Positions 192 through 35,049 of a DNA stretch of 64,000 bases are shown here, piece after piece. The DNA is taken from NCBI GenBank assembly GCA_031835245.2, contig JAVKOQ020000040.1, forward strand, positions 1-64,000, written 5' to 3'. A model generated the notes under the pieces. That model was not told where the DNA came from, did not search any database, and saw only the letters and a program-made list of their open reading frames with translations. The position numbers and the translations under genes are program-made. Origin of the DNA: Balamuthia mandrillaris (taxonomy: Eukaryota). Position 1 is the first letter of the stretch. Every line of letters begins with the position of its first letter.

Positions 192-2424
192 TTACTTTAG
201 CAAAGGATCTTCCAAACTTTCCCAATAAAGTGTAAGCAAACCACGAGTTCTGCTTGTATCTGGTAGTTGAGTTTCCAAAATCCATACAGGTTGTATTTCC
301 CCTTGATATCTAACTTGAAATGTAGGAGCTGTGTCATCGTCTTGGAATTTGTGGTCCAATATGACTTCCAACAGTTTTCCTTCTTCTTTTTCTTTTTCTT
401 GTACTTCTTCTTCTTCTATCATCAACGAGTCTGTACTATCTTTTACTAGTCTTCTAAGTCTTTTGTGTCTTCTTTTTGGAATTGGTTCTTCTGTTTCCTC
501 ATTTTCCTGTTCCTCTTGTTCCATTTCACCTTCTGTGTCTTTTTGGTGGTCATCATCACTACATTGTTGTAGCCAGTTTGCAAGCAAATCTTCAAAAGTT
601 GGTGCCTGTGAGTCACTTTGCTCTATGTCTTCCAAACTTGAATCTTCCTCCTCTTCTGATTCTCCATCACTCTCCCAAGTTGAAGCTGATACATTGAGTC
701 CTTGTTGAAGTGTTTTTCGGATTCTTTGCACAATCTGTCGGCCTGTCATATGGTCTTGTTGGGCTGAAACTTTGGTGTAGTGCGTCTCATGTGTATTAAA
801 ACTATGAAGCATAGCACGAGCAAGCTTTCGCCTCAATTCATCCGGAAGGTCTATCTCCTTTGCTGCTGTAGCAATAGCAGCTCGAATCTTTCCAGGGGTA
901 ATTCCATTGATTCCACAAAACTTGTACATGAACAAGGACATACGTGTTCCTAGCCGAGTTTGTTGCTTACCAACTGTGTTGCAAAAGAAAAACTGGCTTT
1001 GAATCCTTCGTAATGGCCGAATAACCTTCTGGTAAACACGCATTATAGCTGAAGTCTCTGGTCCAAGCTCTGGGGAATACGGTGGCAAGTTTTGGTTAGC
1101 TGACTTGAAGTGGTGATAAAAAACCTTGTAAGTCTTTGTTTCCTTCTTCCAGTGCAAGGTCTTTCCGCCGATTTCCATATTGTAGAGGTTCTCTGATCGC
1201 AAAGGAACCTCGAACATGCAAAACTTCAACTGAACAAATACCGTCATCATTTGCCATTCATGCCTTGTCAAGTGACCTTTTTCCAAAGCCTTTTCCAACA
1301 GTGGTTTCCAAACTTCCTTTTCCATTCTTTCATAAACCTCCAACAATTCCGTATAGCTAATCCATCTGTTGTGTTCCACAAGATAATCCAAACTGTTCCG
1401 CAGGAGTTTGTTTTGTCTTGCTACATCTCGATGATTCGAAGCTGTTTGAGTAAGCCAAACCGAAAATTCCTCCACCATCTTTTTCCTCACTTGTTTGAAA
1501 TTGGGGTCCTGACGTGCCATTCGAGATAAACCAAAGCAAATCCATCGTTTGAGTGCCCAACAATAATTCCTAATGGTATCAAAACTGACAGGTACTTTGA
1601 CTGCTTCTTCTTCTTCTTCTTCTTCTTCTTTTTTTTCTTTCTTTCCTTCTTGTCTTCTTCTTCTTGCTGGGCAGGAAATCAAGAATGTAGCATTGAAAAA
1701 GTCCACACAGTATCCGATTTCAAAGAACATGGGAAAGTACCGCTGAATTGTTGTTTCATTGGTCCAATCCACTTCTCCATGTCCAGCACTTGGCTGTTTC
1801 CTTTTTGGAGCAGTAGTAGTAGAAGTAGAGGATGATGGTGATGAAGTAGCTGAAGATGAAGCAACTGAGGATGAGGAAGAAGAAGAAGAAGTTGTTTTTC
1901 TGACCGAGACTTGAATCAGTTCAGTGATGTATTCCACATACTTGTTGATATGTGAAAAGTATCCTCGGATGGTGGAAGGCTTTAGTTGAGTTAAGCGAAA
2001 CTGATCCCCCACAGGTTGTCCTTCCCAAGTCTTGTACTCATTCAAGAGTTCTTGCAAAACCAAAGGTATGGACACTGCTCTCATTCTATTTCGTCTCAAT
2101 GGATCTGTAGAGTCTGTCCGAGAACTTGAACGGTTTAGAAGGGCTTGCTTAGCATCTTCAAAATGCCAAGTTTGTTGTCTTTTTGCAACACATTTGTTCC
2201 CCTTCAAGTGTGAAACCAAACTGCTTTTCGTTTTAGTGGATGGAGTAGTTACAATACTCGCAAGTGAAACAGGGCATAGGCTTTGAACTATGCTTGAGCT
2301 TGAAGTGCTTCACTCCAGAGCGCTTGTGCTTAAATGAAGCAGCACATCCATCAAAAGCACAGTCCCACAGTTGTGTAATGGGATTTAAACATGCGTGGTA
2401 CACAGTCTTCTTCCATAATTCTTT
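192..2424 (-). pseudogene. Crypton-like tyrosine recombinase with N-terminal zinc fingers and C-terminal chromodomain-like region; frameshifted at 2237-2244
   Basis: ORF 192..2219 has YR motifs in order: PLRSEN (R), HFKSA (K), TPGKIR (second R), LARAMLHS (H), THY (Y). The C-terminus EVILDHK..TFQVRYQG..PVWILETQL resembles a chromodomain. Upstream sequence 2245-2424 reads, in another frame, WDCAFDGCAASFKHKRSGVKHFKLKH..FTCEYCNYS and joins the ORF frame if one TGGA copy is removed. Putative splice acceptor at 2425-2426; true start not located. Confidence 0.75.
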
Positions 2425-7552: not shown

Positions 7553-8287
7553 ATGTGGGAGGCAACGGAAGAGCAAGGTGATGAGGCATTTGACCTTTTC
7601 GGAATTGAAGTTCCTGCCTTGAAGGAACTCGTGGCTCGTTTCCTTGTGAGCTCACTTCAGGAAATACAAAGTTCCTCTTCTTCTGACGATACAAAACTCC
7701 CTTCTTCCAATTTCGTTCCCAAGTGGAACTTTTGTGAGGATGTTAAACCGGTGCTCCAACGCTTCCTGAGCGTAGAGCAACAACGACAGTTCTTTACCCC
7801 TACTGAAGTCACTCTCTGGCACGAGCTTAATCCCACCTCCAAACGGGTCCAACTTCGTTTCAACGAAAATGACAAGACTACAACAAGTGGAACGCTGCAT
7901 GGTCACCACGCCGTCACCTACTACTACCCTTGTGGAGCCGTTCAAAGCACTCTTTGTTGTGAGAACGGACGACCCCTGCGAGAGTCACATTGGTCTCCGC
8001 ACGGCCAGCTCCTCTTTCAAAGGTGCTTTGAGGGAGTCCGAGAGCACCAACAGCGCTGCTGGATGAACAACACCAACAAACTCGACGCTATTTATATTCC
8101 AACTGTTGCTAGCAGGTTGCTCGATGAGATGAGAACAGAAGAGAAGAGAAATAGAAGACAAAGCACAGAAACACAAGCACTACCGGCAGCTTCATGGCTC
8201 GATCTTTCACATATGCCAAGAGCTCCACTGAAGGGCCCCCCTCCTCCACTCCAAAATCCTCCTTGTTGTCCATGGGAACATCAATGA
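7553..8287 (+). CDS. Hypothetical protein with possible MORN-variant repeats
   Basis: 244-aa ORF of ordinary composition. LHGHHAVTYYYPCGAVQSTLCCENG and HWSPHGQL resemble the MORN_2 pattern (LHG..YY.NG....Y.NG). Confidence 0.45.
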   Translation: MWEATEEQGDEAFDLFGIEVPALKELVARFLVSSLQEIQSSSSSDDTKLPSSNFVPKWNFCEDVKPVLQRFLSVEQQRQFFTPTEVTLWHELNPTSKRVQLRFNENDKTTTSGTLHGHHAVTYYYPCGAVQSTLCCENGRPLRESHWSPHGQLLFQRCFEGVREHQQRCWMNNTNKLDAIYIPTVASRLLDEMRTEEKRNRRQSTETQALPAASWLDLSHMPRAPLKGPPPPLQNPPCCPWEHQ

Positions 8288-8421
8288 ACGTCGAGCAAGA
8301 CAGAGCCTAGAGACACGAAGAGAAGTTGAGGCAAAAATTCACCAACACTTATTCTTAGGAAGATCAACCATCATGGCGTTTTTTGTTACAATGGGAAGAA
8401 CAACTACTACAATTTCAATCA

Positions 8422-9120
8422 TTACCCAGAGAAGCTGACCTCTCCGACATCAATAATATTATGGCTTTCTTGTAGCCTAATAGTTATTAACTGGCTTTTT
8501 TCTTGTTCGGGGCGGCCATAGTTGGTGAATACACTCAATAGAATGGTGGTACCCCCAGTTATGGTTTGACTGCGGCTAGCAAAGTACTTGGCACGTATTT
8601 TGTAGGTACCTTGAGGTGCCTTGCGTATCATATATTCCTCCGGGCCATATCCCTGTAGTAGTAGTTATTATTTATTTTTGTTAATGAGAATAACGGTGAG
8701 AAAAGAATGTGAGCAAGATTACATACATCCATAAAGTCACGAGAGACAAGACCACCATAACTTGTGTTCTTATGCCCAAAGTACGCTTCTTCTCCAGTGG
8801 GTTCTATGACATGGATGTCGATGTCCGTGTTGTCTGTAATACAATTTAGCAATATTACAAAAAACAACAAAATAAAAAAAGCTGACCTGTGTCCCATGCC
8901 ATGGATATCCTAAGGTCAAGGTCGAATCGGTGAATTAACGATTTAGCAATGGGGCAATCCACTGTAATGCCTTCATGTTTGCAAAAGTCAAGAATGCGAT
9001 TTGCTTCCACCAATGCGGTAAGCTCAATCTCCCTAAAGTCATCCCTCCAAGCCCCTAACACTACTTCATTCAAAAGCTCAAGGGCTCTGTAGTGGAATGG
9101 TCTTGATTAAAACCAACGAA

Positions 9121-18090: not shown

Positions 18091-19008
18091 TTTTACACTT
18101 GGCTCTTTGCTTGTAGTTGAGATCTTGATATTGCCCAGGGAGGGCGAGGGTGAGAGCGACCAGAGCAGTGTCAGTGTGAAGAGAGCAAAACAAAACAAAA
18201 AAAAAAATACACTCACATGCTTCCAGGCAGGTCCCTGTCTCTTATTTTGAAGTTGCTACGCTTGCCAACTGGCCACACAAAAAGCTCACTTCACAAGTGA
18301 GGAGAGGAGGAATAGTGGGCGCTACACTTTTCTTTGCTAAAAAAGTAGCAGCAGCAGCAGCAGCAGCAGATGTCTTCCCTCACTCTCTCGGTTTGGGTGG
18401 AGGCGTAGGCGTAGGGAGGAGGAGGAGAAGGAAGATGGAGAGAAGAGGCCTCGTTTTTTTCCGTTTGTTTTCTGTCATCCTTTTCTGTCGGATATTTAAT
18501 TAGATCCGCAAGGAAATTTCACACAAGGCGAAAATTCCCTCTCTCCTCTCCTCCCTTCTCCCCTCTCTCTCTGTCCTACACTCATTCTCTTCTGTCTCAT
18601 CGTGTCGTTGGAAAGAGCCATGCATGGAGAGGAACTCCCAATTTATTCTTCTCCACTCCTTCTGCGCTGTTCTCTCGTTCTCTTCTCTCCTCTCCCTCAC
18701 TCTCTTTTTGAGGCGTTTTGTGGCTCCTTCCTTGTTGTGCAATGAATGAAATCGCTCCTTTGCGTCGCTGGGGCCCGAATTTACTGCGGCCTTCGGCCGC
18801 CTCTTCCTTGCCTCCTTGCTTTGATATTTTTTGTTATTTGTTACTGAAGTGAGTGGCAGTTGCAAGGAGTTTTCAGTAGGTGTCCTAAAATAGTCATATA
18901 GCCTTTATTTATGTATGTACAATAGCTAGCAAGCAACAAGGACAGCAAGAGTAAAAGCATCATCTTCATCGTCATCATCATCATCATCATCAGTATTGAT
19001 AGCATCCG

Positions 19009-20079
19009 TTAATGATGATCATCAAAGCAGATCTGGAGTTCTTGCGGTGTTTCCTGGGCATATCTCGAGGAAAGCACCAAGGAGCACAGGTCCTTGGTCC
19101 TGCAGTTACGTAGCCTTAGGAGCACTTGGGAAGGAAGCACGGGCAGAGCAAGTAACTCTCTCTCCAACTGGAGAGCAAAGTCACCCCAGAATACCAGCTC
19201 AATCTGGTTTTTTTGTTGTAGTTGCAGCAATGAAGGATGACTGGCCTCATCTTCGTCCTCAGCACCAGCAGCGACCACTCCAGCAGCAGCAGCAGCAGCA
19301 TCGTCATCATGGTCCCATACTTGTATAGTTGCCACAGGGACTTCTGCGTCTGTTGGTGTGGTCACCCAGCGCACAGCAGGCAGTGCTTCCAGCTTGTCAT
19401 CAAGAGAGAGCCTGGCTTCAATCGATACCGCGCAGAACAGGGGCAGGTACTGCACAAGCCCTAGCGGAACCCTTGGAAGCCATTCCCGTTTCTCTTGGAC
19501 TCGCAGCAGGGTAGCCCTTTTCACAGATATCCAACAGTGATGAGGGTAACGGGGCCACCGAGCTGATTGTGCAGCATGCAGTTCGCCACTCTTCCAATCG
19601 TAATTCATCAGCTGAAAGACAGTTCCCAGTTCTAAAGGAGTCAAAAGCTGTCGCAAAGCTCCCCAGGCCACAAGTTGTACCATGGCATGGGTATCTGCTT
19701 CCAGGGCAGCCACGGTTAACGGATGTTTGGGTGGTGGTTGGGATTCTGGCAGACTCGTTGATTTTCCGTTGACAGCAATAACAATCAAGGATAACGGAAC
19801 AGGTTTTTTTGCATCCATCGCTTGTTGCAGTCGGATTGGGTGGGGGGTGACAGAGCGGCCTGAGGAAGAAGAAGAAGAGGAGGAGAAGGAGATGGCAGCG
19901 GCGGTGGCAGCAGCAGCAGCAGCAGCAGCAGAAGAAGAAGTAGAAGCCGAAGTAACTTCAATGGTTTCCTTTCCCTTTGGCTCTGTTTTGGACCTTTTTT
20001 TGGAGTGGGCTGGCGCTTTTTCCTTGCTGCTGCTGCTGTTGTTGTTGTGGTTGACCGTTGTCGTGTCTTTTCGTTTCAT
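19009..20079 (-). CDS. RPA70-like tandem OB-fold ssDNA-binding protein (Helitron gene)
   Basis: 356-aa intronless ORF with two OB-like segments: LEADTHAMVQLVAWG..LELGTVFQLMN and TIQVWD..IELVFWGDFA..VLLRLRNCRTKD..LSS, resembling RPA1 DNA-binding domains. Inside the element and on the same strand as RepHel. Confidence 0.65.
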   Translation of the reverse strand: MKRKDTTTVNHNNNSSSSKEKAPAHSKKRSKTEPKGKETIEVTSASTSSSAAAAAAAATAAAISFSSSSSSSSGRSVTPHPIRLQQAMDAKKPVPLSLIVIAVNGKSTSLPESQPPPKHPLTVAALEADTHAMVQLVAWGALRQLLTPLELGTVFQLMNYDWKSGELHAAQSARWPRYPHHCWISVKRATLLRVQEKREWLPRVPLGLVQYLPLFCAVSIEARLSLDDKLEALPAVRWVTTPTDAEVPVATIQVWDHDDDAAAAAAGVVAAGAEDEDEASHPSLLQLQQKNQIELVFWGDFALQLERELLALPVLPSQVLLRLRNCRTKDLCSLVLSSRYAQETPQELQICFDDHH

Positions 20080-20695: not shown

Positions 20696-21489
20696 TTAGT
20701 TAGAAACAGCGGTGGCAGTGTAAAACATACTTTCATCAGTAAAAAAAACAATGCTGTGACGGGTGCCTGTCCACTCTGTAACCGAGTGCTCTAGCTCATA
20801 AGCTTTTAGAATATAAAAGTCGCCAGGGCGTGCATCAATATATTTGTTGTGGCTGTGTATTTCTACGAGTCCACCTCCCGATTCAAAGTCACCAAAGACC
20901 AGGACACCTACATAACCTTGCTTGTAAAGCTGCTTGTCCCTATGTTTGGTGCTGCGGTGTTGAACGTTTAGGGCTATGGTGGCAAAGGGATGAAAGTAAC
21001 GTTCTTCCTGAGGGACCTGGCTGAAGTCCAGAGCACCAGCATAGCGATCATAGACGTAAGGGCAGGCTTGACGAAAAGTGCGAGCGCACTTGGCCAGCAC
21101 CTTGCGATTGCTGACCAGCCAGGACATGGTCCCTTCCAAACAGGTATCGGGTATGATTTTCACGTGGGGTGAGCTTCGTCGCCAATGGCCCAGCATGATT
21201 TGACTGGAGCCTCTGGTGTTTTTGCCTGTGCCATGTGCTTGCCAATAGGCTGCAAACTCCTCTGTGGATTGGTTGAGGCGCTGGAGTTCGGTTGGACGGA
21301 GCACTGTTGGAAAAAGACGGGCCATCACGGAGGCATCTCGTTCGGAGGCCTGAGGAGCACGCCACTCCGTTACTCCCCCGTTTTGTAATGTGAGAGGAGC
21401 AGCAGTAGCTTTCAAAAGCGCTTTGTAGTGCTTATTGGATTGAGCTCCAGCGTAGGTTTCCAGATGCGGAGGAAGGTTTTTGGTTCGCT

Positions 21490-21578
<89 letters not shown>

Positions 21579-21976
21579 CGCTTTCTAGGAGGCTTCGGCA
21601 GGTTCCACTTGCTGAAGCATGTTGAGCTCTGTAAGGCTGTTGTCTCGGAGAACAACCCAAAAAATAAATAAATAAATAAGTTGGGAAAAAAAGAAAAAGA
21701 TAAAGAAAGAGCCGAAAGAGCACTCGATCCTCCGTAAAAAAGAGGAACCATAGTGAAAGTGAATGAAAGAGAAAAGAAATAAAAAAGAAAAGGAAAACCC
21801 ATACGTGCAGGTGCATAAACAGTGGTTGATGGGGAGACGGAAAAGGCGATATGATCAACTAGCAAAGCAGAACCTGTGGGAGGGGCAGAGGAGGCAGTGC
21901 TGCTCAGCGTGGTCATCTCTTGCATCCGCGCCCAAGCACTGTTACCAGAGAAATCAAATGATGAAGCGGGTTGCAT
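20696..21976 (-). CDS. 2-oxoglutarate/Fe(II) dioxygenase, TET/JBP-family-like (Helitron gene)
   Basis: PFATIALN..KHRD (HxD at 20936-20944), VFGDFESGGGL, PGDFYIL, EHSV (distal His 20786-20788) and TRHSIVFF (2OG-binding Arg followed by SxVFF). A probable in-frame intron at ~21640-21805 (GTATGG donor, pyrimidine-rich). Confidence 0.8.
21491..21577. repeat. (TTG)n microsatellite encoding poly-Thr in the dioxygenase
   Basis: Pure trinucleotide run visible in the sequence. Confidence 0.95.
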
Positions 21977-22337: not shown

Positions 22338-22456
22338 TTAATTTTGTTTTTCTTTGCCCTTGTTTTTTTTCTGTGGCTGTTTTGCTTTTGTTTCCTGATC
22401 AGCAGGGTCCTCTAAGAAGTCCACACGGGGTACATGCCGCCAAAAGGAGAGACCGA

Positions 22457-22496
<40 letters not shown>

Positions 22497-23665
22497 AAAA
22501 GAAAAGGAGGAGGAGGAGGAAGAGAAAGAGGAGGAAGAAGAAGAAAAGCAAGGCAACGACAAAGGCTCGTAGCCAGCAAGCCACGTCAACAGGTCCGCAG
22601 AAGGAGAGAAGTTGTAAAGATGTTGAGTGGAGGAACATTGAAAAGGCAGGATGCGGATATCTGCAGCTTGACGCACCCGCGACAAACCCACGTAGAAGGA
22701 GGCATACTGGAGTTTGGGCAAGAACCGACCCGGCAGAGCGTTGAGGTCCAAGATGACCTTATCCAAGGTGGCTCCTTGGGCCTTGTTGAACGTCATTGCA
22801 AAGGCCATGGTCACCGAGATGTCCGAGCACTTGCAAGAGACAGTAGGGCGTAGGGTCACCTTGCGTTCTTTTTCTACGCGAATGGGAAGCACCACATACC
22901 CCTCTCCTCCACCGGCGCTTCCTGCCCGCTGCTGCTGTCCGAGTTGTGGCGGCGGCGGCGGCTGCTGCTGCTGCTGCAGCAGCTGGGGAAGGAGTTGATG
23001 CATGAGAGCATCGTGGCGGTGTTGAGGAGGGAGTTGAGCCTCCTTGGGCCAGGTGGCCACCCCGCCAGGAGGAAGGCTGCTCGCCATCACCATGACGTTG
23101 ATTGCTCTCGGCGGTTCTGGGGCTTCCACCACCTGCCCTGGAGCGGCAGAGCGCAGCGTGGCTTGCAGCTGTCGGGTGGCGTTGTGGGAAAAGACCAAAG
23201 AATGGAGGATGGCTGCCGTGCCGTTGGCCAACCCCCACATAGGATTGATGTTATGAAGCAACTGAGCGGGCGCCCCCATGACGAAGCAACCCCACAGCTC
23301 GGCCTGGGAGGCATACAGCCTCTCCGTGTCTTGGAGGCTGAGTTTTTGTTGAAGGTCGCTCTGCAGGGGCCGCTTCCACCGGATGACGGGCAGACCTTTG
23401 AGCTTGGCAAAGCTTTTGGCCCGAGAGTAGTTGAGCACCTCCCGTTGACGATTGCCCGTGACCAAAATGGTGGCCGTTTGCCATGCCACCGGATCTGCTT
23501 CCAGGTCCTGGGGTTGTAGCGTTTTGTAAAGTGCATTTGGTCCGGCAAACAGAGCAAAGTTCTGAGGTAGAACCGCCGTCGCCGCCGCCGCCGCTGTGGC
23601 GGATGAAGACGAGGAAGAAGAAGCAGAAGAAGCAGAAAACACAGAAGGTGGAGAAGAGCAAGAGT

Positions 23666-23699
<34 letters not shown>

Positions 23700-24539
23700 A
23701 CCCAGTAGACGTTGAAGGTTGGCATGAGATAACGGCCTTTTGTGAGCAGAGCGACAGGCGTTGACCACCGTGGTGTGAAGGGGATCACGGGCAGCTCTCA
23801 TCTGTTGAGTAAACTCCATCTTATGAAAGCAAGAAAAGAGGTAAGGTCCCCAACAAGTGGCGTTCTTGGGATTGAAGCACGGCCTGGTGCCACGAGACCG
23901 CTGCCTGCCCTTTAGAGTTCTAGGTGGCTGCTGTCGCTGTCGCAGTTGGCAGAGAGCCTTGTAGAGCGCCTCGTCGCCCACGGGAGGGATCTGGAACATG
24001 TCTCCCAGCAGCACCACCACCAACCCACCGAAAGGAAGGCTGGGTTGTTGTCGGATCTGGCGAAGGCGCCAATCGATTTGTGCCAAGAAGCTGGCTCCCA
24101 CCATGGACACCTCATCGATGAGCAGCACCTTGGTGTCCTCTCCCAGCAGGCCACGGAGGCGAGCCAAGCGCACGGCATTGGTGATGGGAGCCCAGGAGGC
24201 GGCTCGCTTGGCTTTGCCTTTATTTTCTGAAGCACGCGTCTCCTGCCGGCCACAGCCAATGAGGGAGTGAATGGTACGGCCGTGTTTGTGATGGGTGGCT
24301 GCCACGCCGGTGGAGGCCGTGGCGCAGATCTTGGAGGAGCCCAGCAGCTTGTGGAGGCATTGCGCGAAAAAGGTCTTGCCCGTCCCAGGGCCACCATGAA
24401 CAAAGAGCAAGGGAGCTGTTCTGTGAGGAAGTGGCGGCGGCAGCAGTGATGGCGGGGGAGATGGCTGTTCTGCTTCCATTATTCGCACCCCAACCGAAGG
24501 GGCCACTCCTTCTCCTTCTCCTTCTCTTCCTTCTCTTCT

Positions 24540-24577
<38 letters not shown>

Positions 24578-26513
24578 CTTGCAGGTTTTCCAGTTGCCAC
24601 ACCCATCGAACCACCATCTCCAAGGCCATCTTTTGTTGAGGTGTGGGTTGTTGTTCCTCCAACTCCTCCTTCAGACAACTCTCCATCAGCAAGCCCACCT
24701 CCTCTTGAGACCACCGATTGCAGAAGGAGGTTCGCTCGTCCTCTTGACTCTCTGTGTATGCATAAAGAGCTCCACGATCTTCTTTGGCAGCTGCAGCTTG
24801 TTGTTCTAGTATTCTGCTATCCAACTCCAGCTGCTCAATGGCGACGGCCATGCTGGCCGCCTGAGTAGCAGGGAAGTGAGAAAGGCTTGCCTCTATGTAG
24901 CTAACCTGTGGTAGGTTGTTGTTGTGGTTGTGGTTGTTATTATTGTTTTCATCATCATCATCATCATCATCATCATCTTGTAACTCGTCACCATCTATTT
25001 GGCTGTTACCTTCTTTTTCTTTTTCTTTTTCTTGTTCATTTTCTTCTAGGTTGGCGTTTTCGAAAGAAGAAGGAGAAGAGGAAGAAGCAGCAGCAGCAGT
25101 AGAAGAATCAGAAGCAAAGAAGGAGTTCATCCACTCTTCCAGGTTGGAGAGATAGGTATGACAAGCTTCGGTCTTGGGATCAGGAGCATCTCCTCTTGCC
25201 TTGATGCGTAACTCCTCAATCACAGCCTTTGCTTTTTGAAGGGCAGCTTCCTCTTCCTCATTGATGATGGTGCTTGCATGCTCATCCCCTTTTGTTCTTT
25301 CACCCTCCGTATCCGCATCATCATTCACCCCCTGGCGGCGAGCAGCAGCTTGAGTTTCTGCTTGGTTCCAGCTAACCACGGCTCGTGTGCGCCATTTGCG
25401 AGTCATCTCTTTGGCCAGAGAGGTGATGTTCATGCCAAGACTCACGTTGTGGATCCAACGAAGATAGCAGGACCCCACAAAGCTGCCCTCTGCTCGCAAC
25501 GCTTTCATCCATTGCAACAAAGACGCGTAGGAAGGGTCCACTGGCTGCTCCTCTGACCACGGGCGAAAGACAGCGGTGATGTAATGTGCCCAATGCTCAG
25601 CAGCACGTCTCCAAGAGGGCTTGTCTCGGAAGGAACCCGCAGGGAAGCGGGGTGCAGGACGGCCTGCCAAGATGGGAATTTGTTGTTTGGATCGCAGCTT
25701 TTGGTGGTGAGTCTGATAGTTAGGATGTGAAGGTGCAAAGGCAAAGATCCGGCTGGCCTTTCTTCCTGCTGCATGTCGTTCTGGAGAAGAGGTGGAGGAG
25801 GAGGAGGAGATGGAGGAAGAAGAAGAAGAAGAAGAAGAAGAAGAGAGTGAAGGCGTCTTTGTGCTTGTTTTGGGTTGGATGACAATGAGTGCACAATAGA
25901 GGTAGAAGCTGAGGTCGGCCAGTTCTTTGCCACGATGCAGATAATTGGTTGCTTGGTTCACAATGTAAGGTTTATGAGTTTCCTTACAGTAATAAACTTG
26001 GCCTACTCCTTCATCTTCCTCTTCCATCTGTTGTTGTTGTTGTTGTTGTTGTTGGTTTGATGAAGTCCAGGAGAACAAGTCTTCAAAGATGTTTATCTCT
26101 TCATTTGCTTTTGTTGTTTCTTGTTCTTCTAATTCTTCTTGTTCTTCTTGTTCTTCTTGTTCTTCTTGTTCTTGTTCTTCTTCTTCTTCTTCTTCTTCTT
26201 TTTCCTCTTTTTCTTTTTCTTTCTCTTTCTCTTTTTCTTGCTTTTCTTCTTCTTCCTCATTATCATCATCTCCTGGTTCCAAGAAGCCCTTTGCTCTGGC
26301 AAGACGGACCAAAGCCTTTACACCAGACCAAGCAAAACAAAACCATGTCTCATGGCTTTTAATGGTAGCATTATAGCCTAAGAGAATGGACATTGCTTGT
26401 GTTGCAGAAATCTGTTGAAACACAAACAAAAGAAAACAAAACAGGATAGGTGGCTTAAGATAATGGTGGGATAATAATAATAACAATAATAACAACAACA
26501 ATAATAATAACAA

Positions 26514-26577
<64 letters not shown>

Positions 26578-28731
26578 AAATAAAATAATAAACAAACCTC
26601 GCAACTTCCACTCAAATTGTTTGCAAGACGTGTGATAAGGTGCTGTCCTGTTCGCTCTGGCGTGCCCGAGTCATCTGCTTGAGAAGGATACTTGTGCACG
26701 GTTCGAAGTGCCTCATGGAAGAGGGAAAGAGAGTTGGTGATGGCCACCGCATCCTTGGTCACGTACTTGACCAGGTAGAAGACTACAGGACGTGCTTGTG
26801 CTTGAGCGCCCAGCAAAGCACAGTTGGTGTTGCAACCGGTGGCGTTGGCCAGCGCTCCTGAGAACTCGGCCACCTTCCCATCCTCAAGCAGCGGTCTTTG
26901 GGTCTCATAGATGATAAAGCGTTCATCTGGAGGAGGAAACGGTTCGCCAGGGTTGATACGCAAACATGGAGGAGGAGGAATGGGTTCATCCGTTTTCTCT
27001 GTTGGCATGCTTTCACCCTCCTTCATTTCGATCCACACTGGACGAGTCCTCTCCTGCACAGCACGATCAAAGCCCAGCCGACAGTAATACTGCCCATACA
27101 TCCCTTTACGACAGGTAGCGCTGTGGGTGTGAATTTGGGTGGCATCTGCAACATGAAACACGCGTTGACGGTAAGCACGCTCCAAGATTGGGTTTTCAGG
27201 AATAATGGGCATGTATAATCCTGCTCGATACACAGGGCCCTTTTCTTCTCGTCGCTTTTTTCCTTTTTTTTTTTTGTTTTTGTTTTTGGTTTTGTTTTTG
27301 GTTTTTTGTTTTTTGTTTGTTTGTTTGAAAGAAAGGATTATTATCATTCATTATTAAAAGAGAAAAGAAACAAAAAGAAAAGAAAAGAAAAGAAAAGAAA
27401 AGAAAAGAAAAGAAATAGAGGTGGTTACCTTCTTCATGGATATAGGCAGGCAAGCAAGAGAGAATCATGCTGTCAATGACAGCACAAACTCGTTCCACCA
27501 GCTCTTGATGATGAGCCACACTTTGGAGAAGCTGTGGCGGTAGGCCTCCCCACACCAAGGCGTGCAAATGCAAAGACCCACGCCCTTGCGTCTCAAACAC
27601 TCCGTAGTAAGCCACTGGGGTTCCCAAGATGCCCTTGGTCCGTGCAGAAACCGGCGGAAAAGAGCGTTTCTTCTTGCCTTGGTGGATGCCAAACAGGTCT
27701 TCCATCACCGCCTCAATCAAGCGATGGAAGAACTGCGCTGCTGCTGCTGGATTACGGGCCAGGATCTGGGCTCGTGCTCGATAGTTTGGCATGGGAATGT
27801 GAAGCTCTATAGCTTCCTCCTCTTCCTCTTTTCCTCTTTCTCCTCCTCCACTGCCGCCGCCGCCACCACTGCCGCCGCCACCGCTGCTGCTTCCACCGGG
27901 CCACGCATTGGAAAGGCGAAGCACCATGGGCGCGCTGATGTCGTCTGGAGAGATAGTCAGGAAGAAAGAAGGCATGCCAAAGCACTGAACCATGCCGTAG
28001 AGTTGACAGAGGCAGTGGCGTCGCTGAGCAGGACCAAAGGGCACCTTCTCTCCAGCCATATGAATATGAGGAAGCAAGAGGCTCATGATCCGTTTGGCCT
28101 CTTTGCTGTCTGGGGCCTGGATGGCCTCCTTCAGTCTCTGCTTGAAACCCGGCTCTGTTACCACGCTGGTGAATGCCGCGATAGAACTGGGATTGGCTTT
28201 GACCTTGGCGGCCACGCACCGGCAGGCCGTGTGGCGGACCAGCTGGTTGAAGAGCAGAAAGGCCAAGGAGGTGCTGTGCGCAAAGCGCAAAGAGAAATGG
28301 CGCATCAGAGAAGAAGTCCAAGAAATGGAAAGAGAGCCTTTCCCTGGAACGCCTTCCCCAAGGACAAAGAGCCAAGGGAAGGCTGCCGTGATGAGGTAGT
28401 CGTTTTGACCAAACTCGTTGATTGGCTCGCTCTCCCATCGTGCAACGATGGTGTTCTTCTTCTTCGTTTTCTTGCTGTGACTTGCTGCTTTGTCACCTTT
28501 CTCCTGCTCTGTGTGCTCGTTAGTGCCCTCTTCACCGCCATCTGCATCATCAGCATCAGCATCATCATCATCAATGGCCTTTGCAATGCTTCTTAAGACT
28601 TGTGCTTCAATGGGGTGATCAGAGACCTATAAAAATGTGAATGAGAAAAGAGAAACAAGAGAGAAATAGAGAGAGAGGACACGAGAGAACATGAGAGAGA
28701 GAGAGAGAGAGAGGACATAAAAAAGAGAGAG

Positions 28732-28774
<43 letters not shown>

Positions 28775-29487
28775 TAATAAATACATACTTGATGAAGAAT
28801 GCGGTTGGTGAGCATCACGTCTTGCAGTCCTGCACTGGCCTCATCTGCTTCTGCATCATCGGGATGGCCTTCTGGGTGAGGACGCGTCCTTGCCACATTG
28901 GAGTTGGAGCACTGTTCAATGCTCAATGTCTCCTCATCCTCAATGCAATGCGTGGTATCCAACAGCCGGTCAGGAATGGCTTGAAGCTGCTGGTTCAGCT
29001 CCTCATCAAAGTCCAGCACTCTGATGTCCTCATACAAGGGGTGCACTTGCTTCAAGACTTCCAACCACCGCTGCACCACCCCCACGCGAACTCTCAAAGC
29101 CTCCAGCCCATCACTCAGCTCGGGTTGACGTTCTCGCCAGGCGGTTGTTGTGGAACGAAACCTCTGCCACGTCTCCTTGGTTCCCAGAAAAACCACGCTG
29201 AGCATGTCTGTCACATCAACGGAGGGCAGGGTCTTGGCCAGTTGAACGGGGCCATCGTGGGGAAGAGCAATGACATGCCCAGAGAGGGCCTGTTGTTGGG
29301 TGCTTTTATCCATGCCTATCAACTTGATGCAGTGGCTGAACACTCTGACCGGCGCGATGATGGCTTTCTCCACCAAGGTCAGCTCTGGCAAGCCTAGTCT
29401 TTCTGGACAGCCCAAGTCACCCGAGTTGGCAATGGAGTAAGTCGGCAGCTTGTCCTTTTATTTATTTTTTATTTATTTTTGGTTTGT

Positions 29488-29559
<72 letters not shown>

Positions 29560-31427
29560 AAGAGAGAAAGAGAGAGAGAAGACCAAACCTTGCTGATTGC
29601 TGTTCTACATGGAAAACAAAGAGTGGCCTTGTTGTCTTTTACTTGCTCCTTGTACAAGTAATAGCCCTCCCCGTTCCACTCTGTCACCGTGAAAATGTCT
29701 TTCAGGCGATGCTCCTTCCAATCCGTGAAGGCATCAGGGTCAAGCTTGAGAAGAGAGAGCTCAGCCATGGGAACTTCACGATAGCACTCCTTTGGCGGCA
29801 CCACTGCATCAAAGTCCTTCGTCCCACAAGCAGCACAGATGTGCATCGGTGCGTTGAAGTCCATCTTCTTGTTGAACTCTCTCGTTCTTTGGGCGATCCG
29901 TTCCGTCGTCACCGTCTCCTCCTCAATCTCTTCGCACAGCTTCTCTGTGGCCTCGTCCATCGTCTCTTGTAGTGGTGGTGGTTCTGCGAGGTAGAAACGG
30001 CCGTAGCCTGTGCTCTCGCAGAAGAAGGAGATGGCACAAGCGACATCTCGCTCGTAGTTTTCCAACTGCTCCGCTGTTGGGGGCTGTCGTTGCGTCAACG
30101 TGGCCTGGTTGTTTTGCCTCCTTTCCCAATCCACACGCTCTAACTCCCGTTTGCGTCGCTTTCGTTGTTCATTCCTTTCTGCTGTTGCTTCTTTTTGTTG
30201 CTCCGCCTGTTGGTTGCATTGTCTTTCAGTCCTCCTTTTCCTCTTTCTTGCTTCCTGAGCTTCTTTCTGTTCTTGTGGCATTTGTTGTTGGCGGAGTTGT
30301 TCACATCTGCGTTTCCTTGTATTTTCGGCTTCTTTTTGTTCGGGTGTTTGATTTGCTCGTTGTTGTTGTTTTTGCTCTTTTCTCTTTTCTTTTTGTGCTC
30401 TCTGCTCTTGGGACGTCATTCTTTGTTTTCGTTGTTGCTCTTGCTCTTTCTTCTTTTCCCTTTGTGCTATCTGCTCTTGGGGCGTCATTCTTTCTTTTTG
30501 TTGTTGCTTTTGCTCTTTCTTCTTTTCTCTTTGTGCTGTCTGCTCTTGGGGTGTCATTCTTTCTTTTCGTTGTTGCTCTTGCTCTTTCTTCTTTTCCCTT
30601 TGTGCTATCTGCTCTTGGGGCGTCATTCTTTGCTTTCGTTGTTGCTCTTGCTCTTTCTTCTTTTCCCTTTGTGCTGTCTTCTCTTGGGGCGTCATTTTTT
30701 GCTTTCGTTGTTGCTCTTGCTCTTTCTTCTTTTCCCTTTGTGCTGTCTGCTCTTGGGGCGTCATTCTTTGTTTTCGTTGTTGCTCTTGCTCTTTCTTCTT
30801 TTCCCTTTGTGCTGTCTGCTCTTGGGGTGTCATTCTTTGTTTTCGTTGTTGCGCTTGTTCCTTTCTTCTTGCTCTGAGGGTCGCAAGTTGTTCAGGAGAC
30901 ATACTTTGTTGTCGCCGTTTGTATCGTTCCAGGTTTTTTTCTCTTTCAACTTGCTTTTGTTCTTCCGTCATTGCTGCTCTCTTCTCTCGTTTTCTTTTCC
31001 GGTCTATTGCAAGCTTTTCCTCCTTTGTTCGTGGCGGAACTGCTCTACTTTGTTTTTCAAGTGGTGGAGACTCGGTAGATGATGTTTGTGTGTTCACACT
31101 TGGGGTTTGTGAGAGCTCGGTGGGGGTTTGAGGTTGTTGTTGCTGTTGCTGTGTGGAAGGAAAGGTTTGGAGATACAAATGTCTTCGAAGAGGATACTGC
31201 GCTATTGCAGCTTGGCGTTCCACAGGAGTTAACAGTAAAAGGGGTAAGGGTGATGATGAAGGAAAAGATGTCAAAGAGGTTAATAAAGATGCAGGTGGTG
31301 CAGATGACGCAGATGACGCAGACAACATCGATGACGCAGATGACGCAGATGACACATATGATGCAGATGACACAGATGATGCAGAAAACGTAGAAGATGC
31401 AGAAAACATAGAAGACGCAAAAGACAT
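22338..31427 (-). CDS. Helitron RepHel transposase (HUH Rep + Pif1-family SF1 helicase), 5 exons
   Basis: Exons about 31427-29589, 29454-28789, 28626-27429, 27262-26598 and 26411-22338 join in frame at GT-AG sites. Cys pairs CAACG..CFPC, DUF6570-like LPELTLVEKAIIA, Rep motifs FFLTISPDD, ETQGRGSLHLHALVW, YLVKYVTK; helicase motifs HGGPGTGKT, LIDEVSMV, GDMFQIPPV, FAMTFNKAQGATL, YVGLSRVR. The start may lie further upstream. Confidence 0.93.
30350..30860 (-). repeat. 60-bp coding tandem repeat (~8 copies; MTPQEQTAQREKKKEQEQQRKQR-like) in the RepHel N-terminus
   Basis: Near-identical units such as TGCTCTTGGGGCGTCATTCTTTGTTTTCGTTGTTGCTCTTGCTCTTTCTTC recur with a period of roughly 60-70 bp. Confidence 0.85.
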
Positions 31428-31750: not shown

Positions 31751-32249
31751 TAAAAGAAAAAAAAAGAGCAAGTAGTTGGTGGTGAATTGCTTGTTATTTG
31801 CTAGGCAGAACAAACAAATCAAAACAAACGAAAAGAAAAGGCAACAAAGGGAAAGAAAAGGCAACAAAAGGAGAACCGAAGTCTGCTTCTTTGACGCGTG
31901 CTGTACATTTTCGTGTGATTCTTTTTCTCTCCTTCAGTCTCCAGGAGCGTGTTTTTCTTCACTTTTTCTCCTCGTTTCTCTTTGTTTCTCTTCGTTGCTC
32001 TTTCTTCGGTTTTGGTGGCTGAGGTCAGCGCAGACGGAGGAGGCGGACGGCTGGCGGAGAGCGGAGACACAGGGTTTGTCTACAAAAAAGAAAATGAAAT
32101 GAAAGGGAAAAACGCGCAAAAGAGAAAAGGGAAAAGGCAAAGAGGCAAAGTAGACAAAAAAGAGCCGCGGCAGAGTCAAAAAAATAAAAGTCGACATGTC
32201 GGGATTAATTTCTGAAGGACCCTCTTACTCTAGCGAGTAAATTCGGGAA

Positions 32250-32585
32250 TGAAATCGCTCCTTTGCGTCGCTGGGGCCCGAATTTACTGCGGCCTTTGGC
32301 CGCCTGCCTGGTTTGCAGGAAGAGCAGTGCAAATGGGGTAGAAAAGGGAAAAGGAAAAAAGGGGAAGTGAGGTAAGCAAATCTCCTAAAATAGTCATGGC
32401 TGAGGTCAGCGCAGACGGAGGAGGCGGATGGCTGGCGGAGAGCGGAGACACAGGGTTTGTCTACAAAAAAGAAAATGAAATGAAAGGGAAAAACGCAGAG
32501 AAAAGAAAAGGGAAAAGTCAAAGAGGGAAAAAAGACAAAAAAGAACCGCGGCAGAGTCAAAAAAATAAAAGTCGACATGTCGGGA
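32250..32585 (-). mobile_element. Non-autonomous deletion derivative of the Helitron, 5'-truncated copy (336 bp)
   Basis: 32250-32304 matches 18747-18801; 32397-32585 matches the segment starting at 32016 but stops at GTCGGGA, ~45 bp before the terminus. Confidence 0.88.
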
Positions 32586-32969
32586 TGAAATCGCTCCTTT
32601 GCGTCGCTGGGGCCCGAATTTACTGCGGCCTTTGGCCGCATGCCTGGTTTGCAGGAAGAGCAGTGCAAATGTGGTAGAAAAGGGGAAAGGAAAAAAGGGG
32701 AGAAGTGAGGTAAGCAAATCTCCTAAAATAGTCATGGCTGAGGTCAGCGCAGACGGAGGAGGCGGACGGCGGGCGGAGAGCGGAGACACAGGGTTTGTCT
32801 ACAAAAAAGAAAATGAAATGAAAGGGAAAAACGCGCAAAAGAGAAAAGGGAAAAGTCAAAGAGGGAAAAAAGACAAAAAAGAGCCGCAGCAGAGTCAAAA
32901 AAATAAAAGTCGACATGTCGGGATTAATTTCTGAAGGACCCTCTTACTCTAGTCGAGTAAATTCGGGAA
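32586..32969 (-). mobile_element. Non-autonomous deletion derivative of the Helitron, complete copy (~384 bp)
   Basis: Has both ends: TGAAATCGC..CCCGAATTTACT plus hairpin on the left, and TTACTCTAGTCGAGTAAATTCGGGAA on the right (inverted repeat at 32956-32967). Confidence 0.9.
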
Positions 32970-33387
32970 ACATCTATAGGTTAGAACACCCACCAACATG
33001 TTTAACATTGTTCCGCTAGACTAAGTTTTAAAACAACAAAACAAACAAACCTTTTCAAGGGCAACCAACGTTGCTGCAGCAGGAGCTAGTGTCCCTTTTA
33101 GAACGATTGGAAGCAAAGATCAAAAACGGCCGCAAAATGGCTTCCAAGTTCCAACCGCGCTAGAGGGAACGACAGGGAAGAGAACAGGTCACCTTTGGCA
33201 TCCGTTCCTGCCGTTTTCTCTTTGGGCGCGATGAACCTTGTTCTTGTTCCCTTGTGTCTTGTCCCCTTTCCTTCCTTGGCTTTGGTGAGCAGGTCGTTAG
33301 GCCCTCGCTACTGCTCATGGCTACCTCACAGGTGCCACTCCATTATCTTTACGTCAGAACAAAATAAAAATACCAAAGAATTGAGAG

Positions 33388-35049
33388 ATGAGGGCAACAA
33401 ACCGGAGCCATGAATCCCCGCAGGCGGTGCGTCAGCGGAGCAGACACGTCCAAGAACGACAACGCCCGCCCCTTTTTTCTAAGAACACGGTGCACATCGA
33501 CGCTTGTACGTACATAAAATCACAATCGATTTGATTGTGATTTGTTTGCCAAATCAGCACTCACTCGATTGGTGTTTGCAGTGTCAGTGTTGAGTTATAA
33601 CGTGTTGGCGGTGAGGTACGCTAGAAAGGGATGGCTCCCTCATGCCAGTCGCAAAGTGTTGGACCCCAACTACCGTCGCCACAACCTGCTTCGTGAGATA
33701 CTCGATGCCCACGCCGACATCCTCTGTCTGCAGGTTTGTTTTTGATTTATTTTTTTGTTTTGCTCCTTTCTTTCTTTCTTCTTTTCTTATTTATAAAAAA
33801 GGAGGTAGATGAGTTCGAGAAAGAATGGAGAGAGCCGCTAGAACAAGCCGGCTATGAGTGTCAGTACAAGCACCGAACGGGCGGCCGCAAGGACGGCTGC
33901 TTGATAGCTTATCTCGCTCGCAAGTTTCGTTTGGTGGAGCGACGCGGCGTCAACTTCAACACCATCGGCAAGAAGGCGAAACGACGCTCGTTTCTCACTC
34001 AGAACGTGGCCCTTATGGTAGAGCTGCAACAGTTATGCAACAACCACGAGAAAGAAGCAAGGAACGAAGAAGAGAGAGAAGGAGAAGGAGAAGAAAGCGG
34101 AACATCATTGGTGGTGGCTTGTGTGCATTTGAATTGGGAGTGGGAGGATCTGAAGTTGCTACAAACGCTGAAATTGATGGAGGAACTGACTTCCTTTCGA
34201 GGCAAGTACATCCATCAGAAGAAGGAGAACAGAGAGCCGCTCCTCCCTCTTCTATTATGCGGAGACTTCAACGCCATGCCTCCGTCTTGTTGCGGCAGAA
34301 CAAACAAGCACGAGAACGAAACCCACAACGAAACCGAACACAAAAGCAAAAATGAAAACGGAAAGCGGAACACAGAGGAGGGTGATGAACACGAGAAACA
34401 GGAGAAAGAAGAGGAGGAGCACACACAGAAGGAAAAAGAAAAGGGGACGGAAAAAGAAGAGAAGGAGGAAAAAGAGGAGAAAAACAATGGAACGGACAAA
34501 GCTAACCAGATGGAAACGGAAATAGATGGAGAGGTTTATCAAATGCTGACTACTGGTGTCATTGACTTGTCAGGATTGGCCCCAAAACTTCGACAGAGAC
34601 TTCGTTTGCCATTGCATGTAACGCTGGCGCAACACAAAGGACACAAAGGAGAAAGTAACGAAGAGCCTACAAAGAGCAGAACAAACACGAAGACAAAACA
34701 GCAAAAGAGGAAGCTTCCTTCTGTAGCAAGCGCCTACAAAGAGGTGTTGGGAATGGAGCCACCTTTCACCAACCGAAAGCCCAACTTTCGTGGTACCTTG
34801 GACTACATATTTTACAGTCGAGACTCGGAAGAAGCAGGAGAAGGAGAGCAAGAAGGAACTCTTCTGGTGCCGACGGCTGTGTTGGATGTCCCTTCGGAGA
34901 AGCTTGTATTGGAACTTGGAGCATTGCCCAATCGTGTGTGGTCCAGCGACCACCTCATGCTCTGGGCCAGCTTTCTCGTTCTTCAACGTTGCGGCCATAC
35001 TGACACGAAACAAGCAATAACCAACAAGCTCAACAACAGCAGTGAATGA
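33388..35049 (+). CDS. EEP-superfamily phosphoesterase, CCR4/nocturnin/Angel/PDE12-like
   Basis: SYNVLA, DILCLQEVD (spliced), DGCLIAY, CGDFNA, TLDYIFY and SSDHL motifs; two short introns near 33507-33581 and 33734-33800. Confidence 0.88.

What the first reader, a model, noticed from the sequence alone, without database searches (positions are those of the whole stretch)
20696..21976. Helitron carries its own TET/JBP-like DNA dioxygenase
Seen: an intact ORF lies inside the element ends, between RepHel and the RPA-like gene and co-oriented with both. It has the full metal/2OG set (HRD, distal H, R-H-S-I-V-F-F) plus FATIALN, GDFxxGG and PGD motifs. Known: this motif pattern marks TET/JBP enzymes, which oxidise 5mC or thymine (some members act on 6mA), and fungal TET/JBP genes travel with KDZ/Plavaka-type transposons. 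The Helitron accessory genes I know of are RPA, AP endonuclease and OTU protease, not TET/JBP. Inference: a rolling-circle element that edits DNA marks, for example erasing host silencing methylation on itself or marking its ssDNA/circular intermediates. I cannot confirm novelty without a search.
Basis: partly seen in the sequence, partly recalled or inferred. Interest (0 to 1): 0.92.

Follow-up and report, generated by a model that had tools for sequence, protein, structure and literature searches.

The report
Amoeba Helitron carrying a TET-like enzyme
An intact rolling-circle jumping gene in the amoeba Balamuthia carries a gene for a TET-type DNA-base oxidase, a pairing already known from fungi and a green alga; it likely helps the element undo host methylation silencing, though changes in its base-binding pocket leave the target base open.

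Summary
ORF 20696-21976 (-) is a TET/JBP dioxygenase: best fold matches are NgTET1, CcTET and TET2 (Z 21.5/20.5/17.5; best non-TET row 14.0), with an intact HxD…H…R set. It lies inside a 13.5-kb Helitron2 (HLE2) of Balamuthia mandrillaris, between an unbroken ≥2,813-aa RepHel and an RPA/OB-fold gene, bounded by a 12-bp asymmetric inverted repeat. A contig of another DNA run joins the flanks across the block (weak joint).

The pairing is not new: TET-carrying Helitrons are published for fungi (PMC12730594) and Chlamydomonas (10.1101/2022.06.16.496473), and this scan noted similar cases on other DNA. I found no amoebozoan case in print.

The added point: both residues that read 5mC in NgTET1/TET2 are replaced (Leu350 for Asp234, Asp414 for His297). 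The same paired swap recurs in relatives (4 of 6 vs 13 of 139). Most likely it oxidises 5mC against silencing (0.45); thymine oxidation (0.22) and a decaying passenger (0.2) remain. New member of a known kind; interest 0.4.

The parts
20696..21976 (-). TET/JBP-family Fe(II)/2-oxoglutarate dioxygenase gene; probable in-frame intron 21804-21637; about 370 aa spliced
20759..20944 (-). Catalytic set: His345 (20944), Asp347 (20938), His397 (20788), Arg406 (20761)
   Evidence: conserved in 147/148, 145/148, 144/146 and 144/146 relatives covering the column
20927..20929 (-). Leu350, at the NgTET1 Asp234 / TET2 Asn1387 / CcTET Gly331 position (5mC N4 reader)
   Evidence: relatives have Asp in 136/148 and Asn in 6/148
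20735..20737 (-). Asp414, at the NgTET1 His297 / TET2 His1904 position (5mC N3 reader)
   Evidence: relatives have His in 83/145 and Asp in 16/145
21490..21578 (-). (ACA)n tract encoding poly-Thr in the low-complexity N-terminal part of the TET protein
22338..31427 (-). RepHel transposase: DUF6570, Helitron_like_N/HUH Rep, PIF1 helicase; four GT-AG introns (29588-29455, 28788-28627, 27428-27263, 26597-26412) give 2,813 aa without internal stops; true start may lie further upstream
   Evidence: a spliced contig spans the 27428-27263 intron
19009..20079 (-). RPA/POT1-like tandem OB-fold ssDNA-binding protein gene
   Evidence: ESM Atlas features 0.92-0.94 and structure TM 0.40-0.49 to RPA70 clusters; no Pfam hit; own single-sequence model unusable
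32236..32247 (-). 5' terminus and left arm of the 12-bp asymmetric inverted repeat, preceded by TT; overlapping 6-bp hairpin 32240-32225
18786..18800 (-). Perfect 6-bp GC hairpin with 3-nt loop, directly before the right arm
18745..18785 (-). Right arm of the inverted repeat (18785-18774) and the last ~29 bp; end at about 18745
   Evidence: 98% match to the unit ends at 32305-32247 and 32639-32585; a flank contig of run X15 stops at 18751
32248..32584 (-). Non-autonomous unit 2 (lacks the first ~45 bp), head-to-tail with the autonomous element
32585..32967 (-). Non-autonomous unit 1: the element's first 235 bp joined to a family 3' end; outer 5' end of the array at 32967, preceded by TTT
   Evidence: X15 joint lands at 32968

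Best explanation
This is an intact Helitron2 (HLE2) transposon of Balamuthia mandrillaris carrying a TET/JBP dioxygenase gene as cargo, and the enzyme likely oxidises 5-methylcytosine so that the element would escape host methylation silencing. Shown: element ends, gene inside them, TET/JBP fold, intact metal and 2-oxoglutarate ligands, unbroken RepHel and RPA-like genes. Inferred: (1) the host marks transposons with 5mC, as Acanthamoeba does; (2) the protein is made and active; (3) it flips out 5mC and hydroxylates the methyl group, leading to demethylation and continued RepHel transcription; (4) Asp414 takes over cytosine reading from the lost Asp234-equivalent, as Asp337 does from another position in CcTET.
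For: Fold: VIA Z 21.5 (rmsd 3.1, 212 aligned) NgTET1, 20.5 CcTET, 17.5 TET2, then FTO 14.0 (model pLDDT 86). Foldseek lists only TET-family entries down to rank 26. Relatives' profile hits NgTET1/CcTET at E 2e-14 to 2e-13, prolyl hydroxylases at 0.03 or worse. Location: ends on both sides; one X15 contig joins 18751 to 32968. The subfamily is mobile cargo elsewhere: a 30%-identical relative lies in a Polinton-like viral contig, L001. Precedent: TET+ Helitrons in fungi; Chlamydomonas TET genes on Helitron2, CMD1 loss doubles 5mC; polymorphic Helitron TET insertions. 5mC is confined to transposons in Acanthamoeba (PMC12695648); its closeness to Balamuthia is recalled. The subfamily mostly has the NgTET1-type Asp/His pair, and loss of Asp/Asn co-occurs with an acid at the His position in 4 of 6 relatives vs 13 of 139 (Fisher p=0.002, query excluded, not corrected for kinship), which fits compensation better than random decay. 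That carboxylates read cytosine N3/N4 in C5 methyltransferases is recalled.
Against: Both direct 5mC readers are gone (Leu350, Asp414) and the CcTET Asp337 position is Val356. In TET2, most substitutions at Asn1387/His1904 cut 5mC oxidation 10- to 40-fold; in CcTET a hydrophobic residue at 337 abolishes 5mC activity. 5mC and DNMTs were not shown for Balamuthia (searches found nothing). CpG o/e in the element (0.64) lies between the flanks (0.65, 0.75) and says nothing. The protein is on a long branch (1.69) and scores under the Pfam cut-off. Two Balamuthia paralogs have HxN instead of HxD and one is truncated, so decayed forms exist. Only one full copy was examined. The X15 joint has 25 letters on its short side, under the tool's bar of 31, with unknown letters between.
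Confidence: 0.45

Rival explanations
1. The enzyme has switched to thymine and would make 5-hydroxymethyluracil, JBP-like, on the element or its rolling-circle intermediates. Leu350 would remove the group that reads cytosine N4, and Asp414 would accept the thymine N3-H.
For: TET2 N1387I oxidises T about as well as N1387T (20-fold gain), H1904Q 5-fold, and NgTET1 D234A enhances T oxidation (PMC11804724). The paired swap recurs in relatives.
Against: The natural thymine hydroxylase JBP1 keeps Asp at the Asp234 position, and TET2 N1387A/D/E/Y gain nothing. T activity of the mutants stays low (kcat/Km 35-139 vs 6,370 for wild type on 5mC). No partner glycosyltransferase gene lies in the element. 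No benefit to a Helitron is known.
Confidence: 0.22
2. The gene is a captured passenger now drifting: active site partly eroded, with little or no activity.
For: Long branch; a residue that is Asp/Asn in 142 of 148 relatives is Leu here; poly-Thr expansion; truncated and HxN paralogs in the same species; only low contig depth on the gene in spliced data sets.
Against: No stops or frameshifts; 13 of 14 columns conserved at 90% or more are kept (partly circular, as relatives were found with this query); Asp to Leu needs two base changes (codon CTT) and is paired with the recurring acid swap; RepHel beside it is unbroken.
Confidence: 0.2
3. The enzyme acts on 6mA, as CcTET can, altering the adenine mark that flags active genes.
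For: Loss of the Asp/Asn side chain at this position permits 6mA in CcTET and in TET2 N1387G; a hydrophobic residue at 337 keeps 6mA activity. Acanthamoeba has genic 6mA.
Against: CcTET makes room with Gly; Leu is bulky. 6mA marks expressed genes, so removing it would not obviously help a transposon.
Confidence: 0.07
4. The gene is a host gene that merely sits between Helitron fragments.
For: Balamuthia has other TET/JBP genes whose context I could not read.
Against: The family 3' end lies beyond the TET and RPA-like genes; X15 flank contigs stop at 18751 and start at 32968 and one contig joins them.
Confidence: 0.03

Closest known systems
TET/JBP-carrying Helitron2-2_cRei and Helitron2-3_cRei of Chlamydomonas reinhardtii (10.1101/2022.06.16.496473; 10.64898/2026.10.09.758095)
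   Same: Helitron2-type element with TET/JBP cargo; present in some strains and absent in others.
   Different: Amoebozoan host; one full copy seen rather than 4-8; this protein is structurally far from CMD1 (Z 11.8 vs 21.5 for NgTET1). The Helitron TET sequences themselves were not compared.
TET+ Helitron1 (Puccinia graminis, Pezizales) and Helitron2 (Agaricus bisporus) of fungi (Kojima 2025, PMC12730594)
   Same: TET/JBP gene inside a complete Helitron; same anti-silencing proposal, not validated experimentally.
   Different: Not PE type (HxD, not HxE); not AG type (no Gly/Ser at 331, no Asp at 337); PU type not compared. The paper covers fungi only.
Naegleria gruberi NgTET1 and Coprinopsis cinerea CcTET
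   Same: Closest solved folds; HxD…H triad, 2OG Arg and stacking Phe align.
   Different: 16% identity; Asp234 and His297 equivalents are Leu and Asp.
Tet-like genes of Polinton-like viruses (10.64898/2026.06.19.733378)
   Same: Mobile-element cargo proposed to counter host silencing; a same-subfamily relative sits in Polinton-like contig L001.
   Different: Virus rather than Helitron; the L001 protein keeps Asp at the Asp234 position.
Fusarium oxysporum FoHeli1/2 and HLE2 (PMC5148889, PMC11417382)
   Same: 12-bp asymmetric inverted repeat with the 3' arm 20-40 bp inside the end, hairpins at both ends, DUF6570, tandem arrays.
   Different: Larger (13.5 kb vs 5-6 kb); the 3' hairpin precedes the right arm; carries TET and RPA-like genes.

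Membership tests
TET/JBP dioxygenases | DSBH fold closer to TET/JBP than to AlkB or prolyl hydroxylases | tested here: met
TET/JBP dioxygenases | HxD…H iron triad | tested here: met
   His345, Asp347, His397
TET/JBP dioxygenases | 2-oxoglutarate Arg on the last strand and base-stacking aromatic residue | tested here: met
   Arg406 = NgTET1 Arg289; Phe412 = Phe295
TET/JBP dioxygenases | Pfam PF12851 gathering score | tested here: inconclusive
   33.2 vs 34.9 bits, E 3.7e-8; 8 of 9 relatives scanned pass, the miss being the truncated P0003
TET/JBP dioxygenases | Oxidation of a methylated base in DNA | not testable with these tools
   needs biochemistry
Canonical 5mC-reading TETs (TET2, NgTET1, CMD1 type) | Asp/Asn reading 5mC N4 | tested here: not met
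   Leu350
Canonical 5mC-reading TETs (TET2, NgTET1, CMD1 type) | His/Arg donor to N3/O2 | tested here: not met
   Asp414
Fungal AG-type (CcTET-like) TETs | Gly/Ser at 331 and Asp at 337 | tested here: not met
   Leu350, Val356
Fungal PE-type TETs | HxE motif | tested here: not met
   HRD
Fungal PU-type TETs | Sequence clustering with Pucciniomycete TE TETs | not tested
   one sequence seen in a supplement row, not aligned
Helitron2 / HLE2 | Rep (HUH + YxxxY-type tyrosines) fused to PIF1 helicase | tested here: met
Helitron2 / HLE2 | DUF6570 marker domain | tested here: met
   45 bits vs cut-off 24.3; marker per PMC11417382
Helitron2 / HLE2 | Short asymmetric terminal inverted repeat (12-16 nt) | tested here: met
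Helitron2 / HLE2 | Terminal hairpins | tested here: inconclusive
   6-bp stems at both ends, kept in the non-autonomous units, but folding z only -0.8 to -1.5
Helitron2 / HLE2 | Insertion between T and T | tested here: inconclusive
   T runs at both ends; exact empty-site letters not read
Helitron2 / HLE2 | RepHel groups with HLE2 in a tree | not tested
   only 4 unnamed metagenomic relatives found
Helitron1 / HLE1 | 5'-TC and 3'-CTRR termini | tested here: not met
Helentron | AP endonuclease domain in the element | tested here: not met
   none in the RepHel ORFs scanned; the EEP gene at 33697-35049 is outside the ends and on the other strand

The most novel reading that the evidence does not exclude
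A recently mobile amoebozoan Helitron2 carries a TET/JBP enzyme whose pocket has switched from 5mC to thymine through a recurrent Asp-to-hydrophobic plus His-to-Asp swap, so a eukaryotic transposon writes 5-hydroxymethyluracil on DNA rather than erasing methylation. The swap would define a natural thymine-specific branch among mobile-element TETs.
Probability: 0.2. Interest if true: 0.75.

Novelty: new member of a known kind. Interest (0 to 1): 0.4.

Why it matters
It extends TET-carrying Helitrons from fungi and green algae to Amoebozoa, with a TET type that fits neither fungal type testable by motif (AG, PE). That supports repeated capture of demethylase-like genes by mobile DNA. The anti-silencing role of such genes is still untested for any Helitron in the papers I read. 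The natural Leu/Asp pocket bears on the open question of what makes TET/JBP enzymes choose 5mC or thymine, and it can be tested in a harmless model enzyme.

Tried and rejected
No whole genome was held, so copy number, paralog context, dN/dS and host DNMTs could not be examined. Word-based searches found only the protein itself, itself plus one relative, and 4 unnamed RepHels. No RNA holder was listed by the run search. Raw RNA runs X9-X11 gave no reads on the TET gene, but 3-5% of each was read, flanking host genes had only about 0-2x depth, and the reads differ from the window in the flank, so this is uninformative. Lack of cover inside the element in X12 has no joining contig and is not counted. 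The 11 listed variants over the TET gene give 5 synonymous and 6 non-synonymous base changes; they resemble the truncated paralog P0003 and come from a cut table, so no selection test was drawn. The TET tree (66 rows, quick method, careful run unfinished) leaves the query unplaced. Context of relatives: of 20 relatives looked up, 18 lie on contigs under 4 kb; the metagenome scan gave 4 loci, two ~1-kb true relatives and two weak hits not examined; the viral scan gave 2 loci, neither with a Rep, helicase or RPA match to this element. So I found no second Helitron with this TET subfamily, and the test was weak. The single-sequence model of the RPA-like protein had pLDDT 35 and its matches were discarded. 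PMC13229309 gave nothing on pocket residues. Considered and rejected: AlkB or prolyl hydroxylase; the EEP gene as a Helentron endonuclease; the second intron of the public gene model (non-GT donor, and it removes a motif shared with paralogs P0021/P0168).

Full report
Observation. The ORF at 20696-21976 (-) is open for 426 codons and holds every motif named. An identical protein is annotated in Balamuthia mandrillaris as QOT17_006035. Residues about 58-113 look like an intron read in frame: GT at 21804, AG at 21637, 168 nt. Splicing there gives 370 aa and keeps a motif shared with two Balamuthia paralogs. No spliced read confirms this.

Enzyme family. Pfam Tet_JBP gives E 3.7e-8, just under the cut-off. 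The top four PDB sequence hits are CcTET and NgTET1. HMMER found 163 relatives at E up to 0.001 among 1.84 billion representatives and listed 150. I aligned 65 of them with the C-terminal 257 aa. That profile hits NgTET1 and CcTET at about 1e-13, TET2 at 1e-3 and prolyl hydroxylases at 0.03 or worse. The model (pLDDT 86) matches NgTET1 Z 21.5, CcTET 20.5, TET2 17.5, then FTO 14.0; Foldseek and the ESM Atlas agree.

The element. RepHel runs from at least 31427 to 22338; four GT-AG introns give 2,813 aa with no internal stop, with DUF6570, Helitron_like_N and PIF1. After the TET gene comes a 356-aa ORF whose nearest Atlas clusters are RPA/POT1 OB folds (TM under 0.5, no Pfam hit). The 5' end at 32247 begins with a 12-mer whose reverse complement lies at 18785-18774, after a perfect 6-bp hairpin and about 29 bp before the end. 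Two non-autonomous units with the same ends lie in tandem upstream, to 32967. This matches Helitron2/HLE2 as described in PMC5148889 and PMC11417382 (passages). In DNA run X15, flank contigs end at 18751 and start at 32968, and one contig joins them, skipping 14,216 bp. The joint has 25 letters on its short side and unknown letters between, so it is weak alone, but it falls within 7 bp of ends found independently. I read the insertion as polymorphic and probably recent. Runs X3 and X4 contain spliced contigs; both carry long exact RepHel pieces, one in X3 across an intron, so RepHel is transcribed. Contig depth over the TET gene there is about 1.5-2; contigs cannot rank expression.

What is known. 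Kojima 2025 (PMC12730594; parts 1-4 of 7 read; one supplement row) reports TET+ Helitron1 in Puccinia graminis and five Pezizales species and TET+ Helitron2 in Agaricus bisporus, proposes escape from methylation silencing, and notes no experimental validation. The Chlamydomonas v6 preprint (passages) places most of its TET genes in Helitron2-2/2-3_cRei. A 2026 preprint (passages and section 10) finds polymorphic Helitron TET insertions; its appendix could not be seen and may hold more detail. Polinton-like viruses also carry Tet-like genes (passages). 'Helitron' with 'Balamuthia' gave 0 papers; 'Helitron/TET/amoeba/JBP' gave 21, of which 15 were listed and none showed an amoebozoan case by title or abstract start. 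The library lacks most subscription journals and Repbase. An earlier scan note (e1-7548484) gave me the green-alga lead and describes a dead TET-bearing Helitron in another protist genome.

The pocket. In TET2, NgTET1 and CMD1, 5mC N4 is read by Asn1387/Asp234/Asp350 and N3 or O2 by His1904/His297/Arg418 (PMC7854593, passages). Here the positions hold Leu350 and Asp414; the alignment is ungapped at both. Of the 149 non-self hits, 148 cover the first position and 142 have Asp/Asn; 83 of 145 have His at the second. Among 145 covering both, an acid at the second position occurs in 4 of 6 lacking Asp/Asn and 13 of 139 having it (p=0.002; kinship not corrected, and the tree is too weak to correct it). 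This suggests a coupled swap. It could be compensation that keeps 5mC as substrate, as CcTET's Asp337 does (PMC11040006, passages), or a shift to thymine, since TET2 N1387I and H1904Q and NgTET1 D234A raise T oxidation (PMC11804724, passages and section 6). Against thymine, JBP1 keeps Asp at that position and the gains are small. Against 5mC, most such substitutions cut 5mC activity 10- to 40-fold.

Mechanism. I commit to anti-silencing 5mC oxidation (0.45). The subfamily is NgTET1-like, it rides on other mobile DNA (L001), a transposon-borne TET lowers 5mC in Chlamydomonas, and Acanthamoeba confines 5mC to transposons (PMC12695648, section 9). Host 5mC in Balamuthia, protein expression and activity are all unshown. 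Thymine oxidation 0.22, decaying passenger 0.2, 6mA 0.07, host gene 0.03.

Verdict. A real, well-bounded, intact TET-carrying Helitron2. The class is published; the new points are the amoebozoan host and the unusual pocket. New member of a known kind, interest 0.4. A thymine-writing enzyme (probability 0.2) would deserve 0.75.

Noticed in passing
window 192-2084 (-): 630-aa ORF that looks by eye like a tyrosine recombinase with a C-terminal chromodomain-like tail (Crypton- or virus-like; label recalled); only a weak Phage_int_SAM_5 hit, E 0.0015.
   Followed up: no
window 32248-32967 (-): Two non-autonomous units head-to-tail in front of the autonomous element; fits rolling-circle concatemers or insertion into its own ends. 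Run X12 holds diverged copies of these ends.
   Followed up: partly
P0021, P0168 (QOT17_004295, QOT17_021502): Balamuthia TET/JBP paralogs with HxN in place of HxD, sharing an N-terminal motif with this protein; context unknown.
   Followed up: partly
P0003 (QOT17_023790); window 21138-21362: A second copy, 85-88% identical over about 85 residues and cut off before the catalytic domain; matching variants occur in runs X1 and X12.
   Followed up: partly
L001:488-18268: Polinton-like viral contig (rve integrase, A32 ATPase, double jelly-roll capsid, GIY-YIG) with a TET gene of the same subfamily at 8175-9041.
   Followed up: partly
window 29455 and 27263: Two RepHel introns end in A-rich rather than pyrimidine-rich acceptors; one is spanned by a spliced contig.
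   Followed up: no
window 33697-35049 (+): Host EEP-family nuclease/phosphatase gene next to the insertion, covered in runs X15 and X12 too.
   Followed up: no
window 33104-33450: Contigs of X1 and X15 show strand-switch joints just outside the element's 5' end, possibly a small inversion.
   Followed up: no
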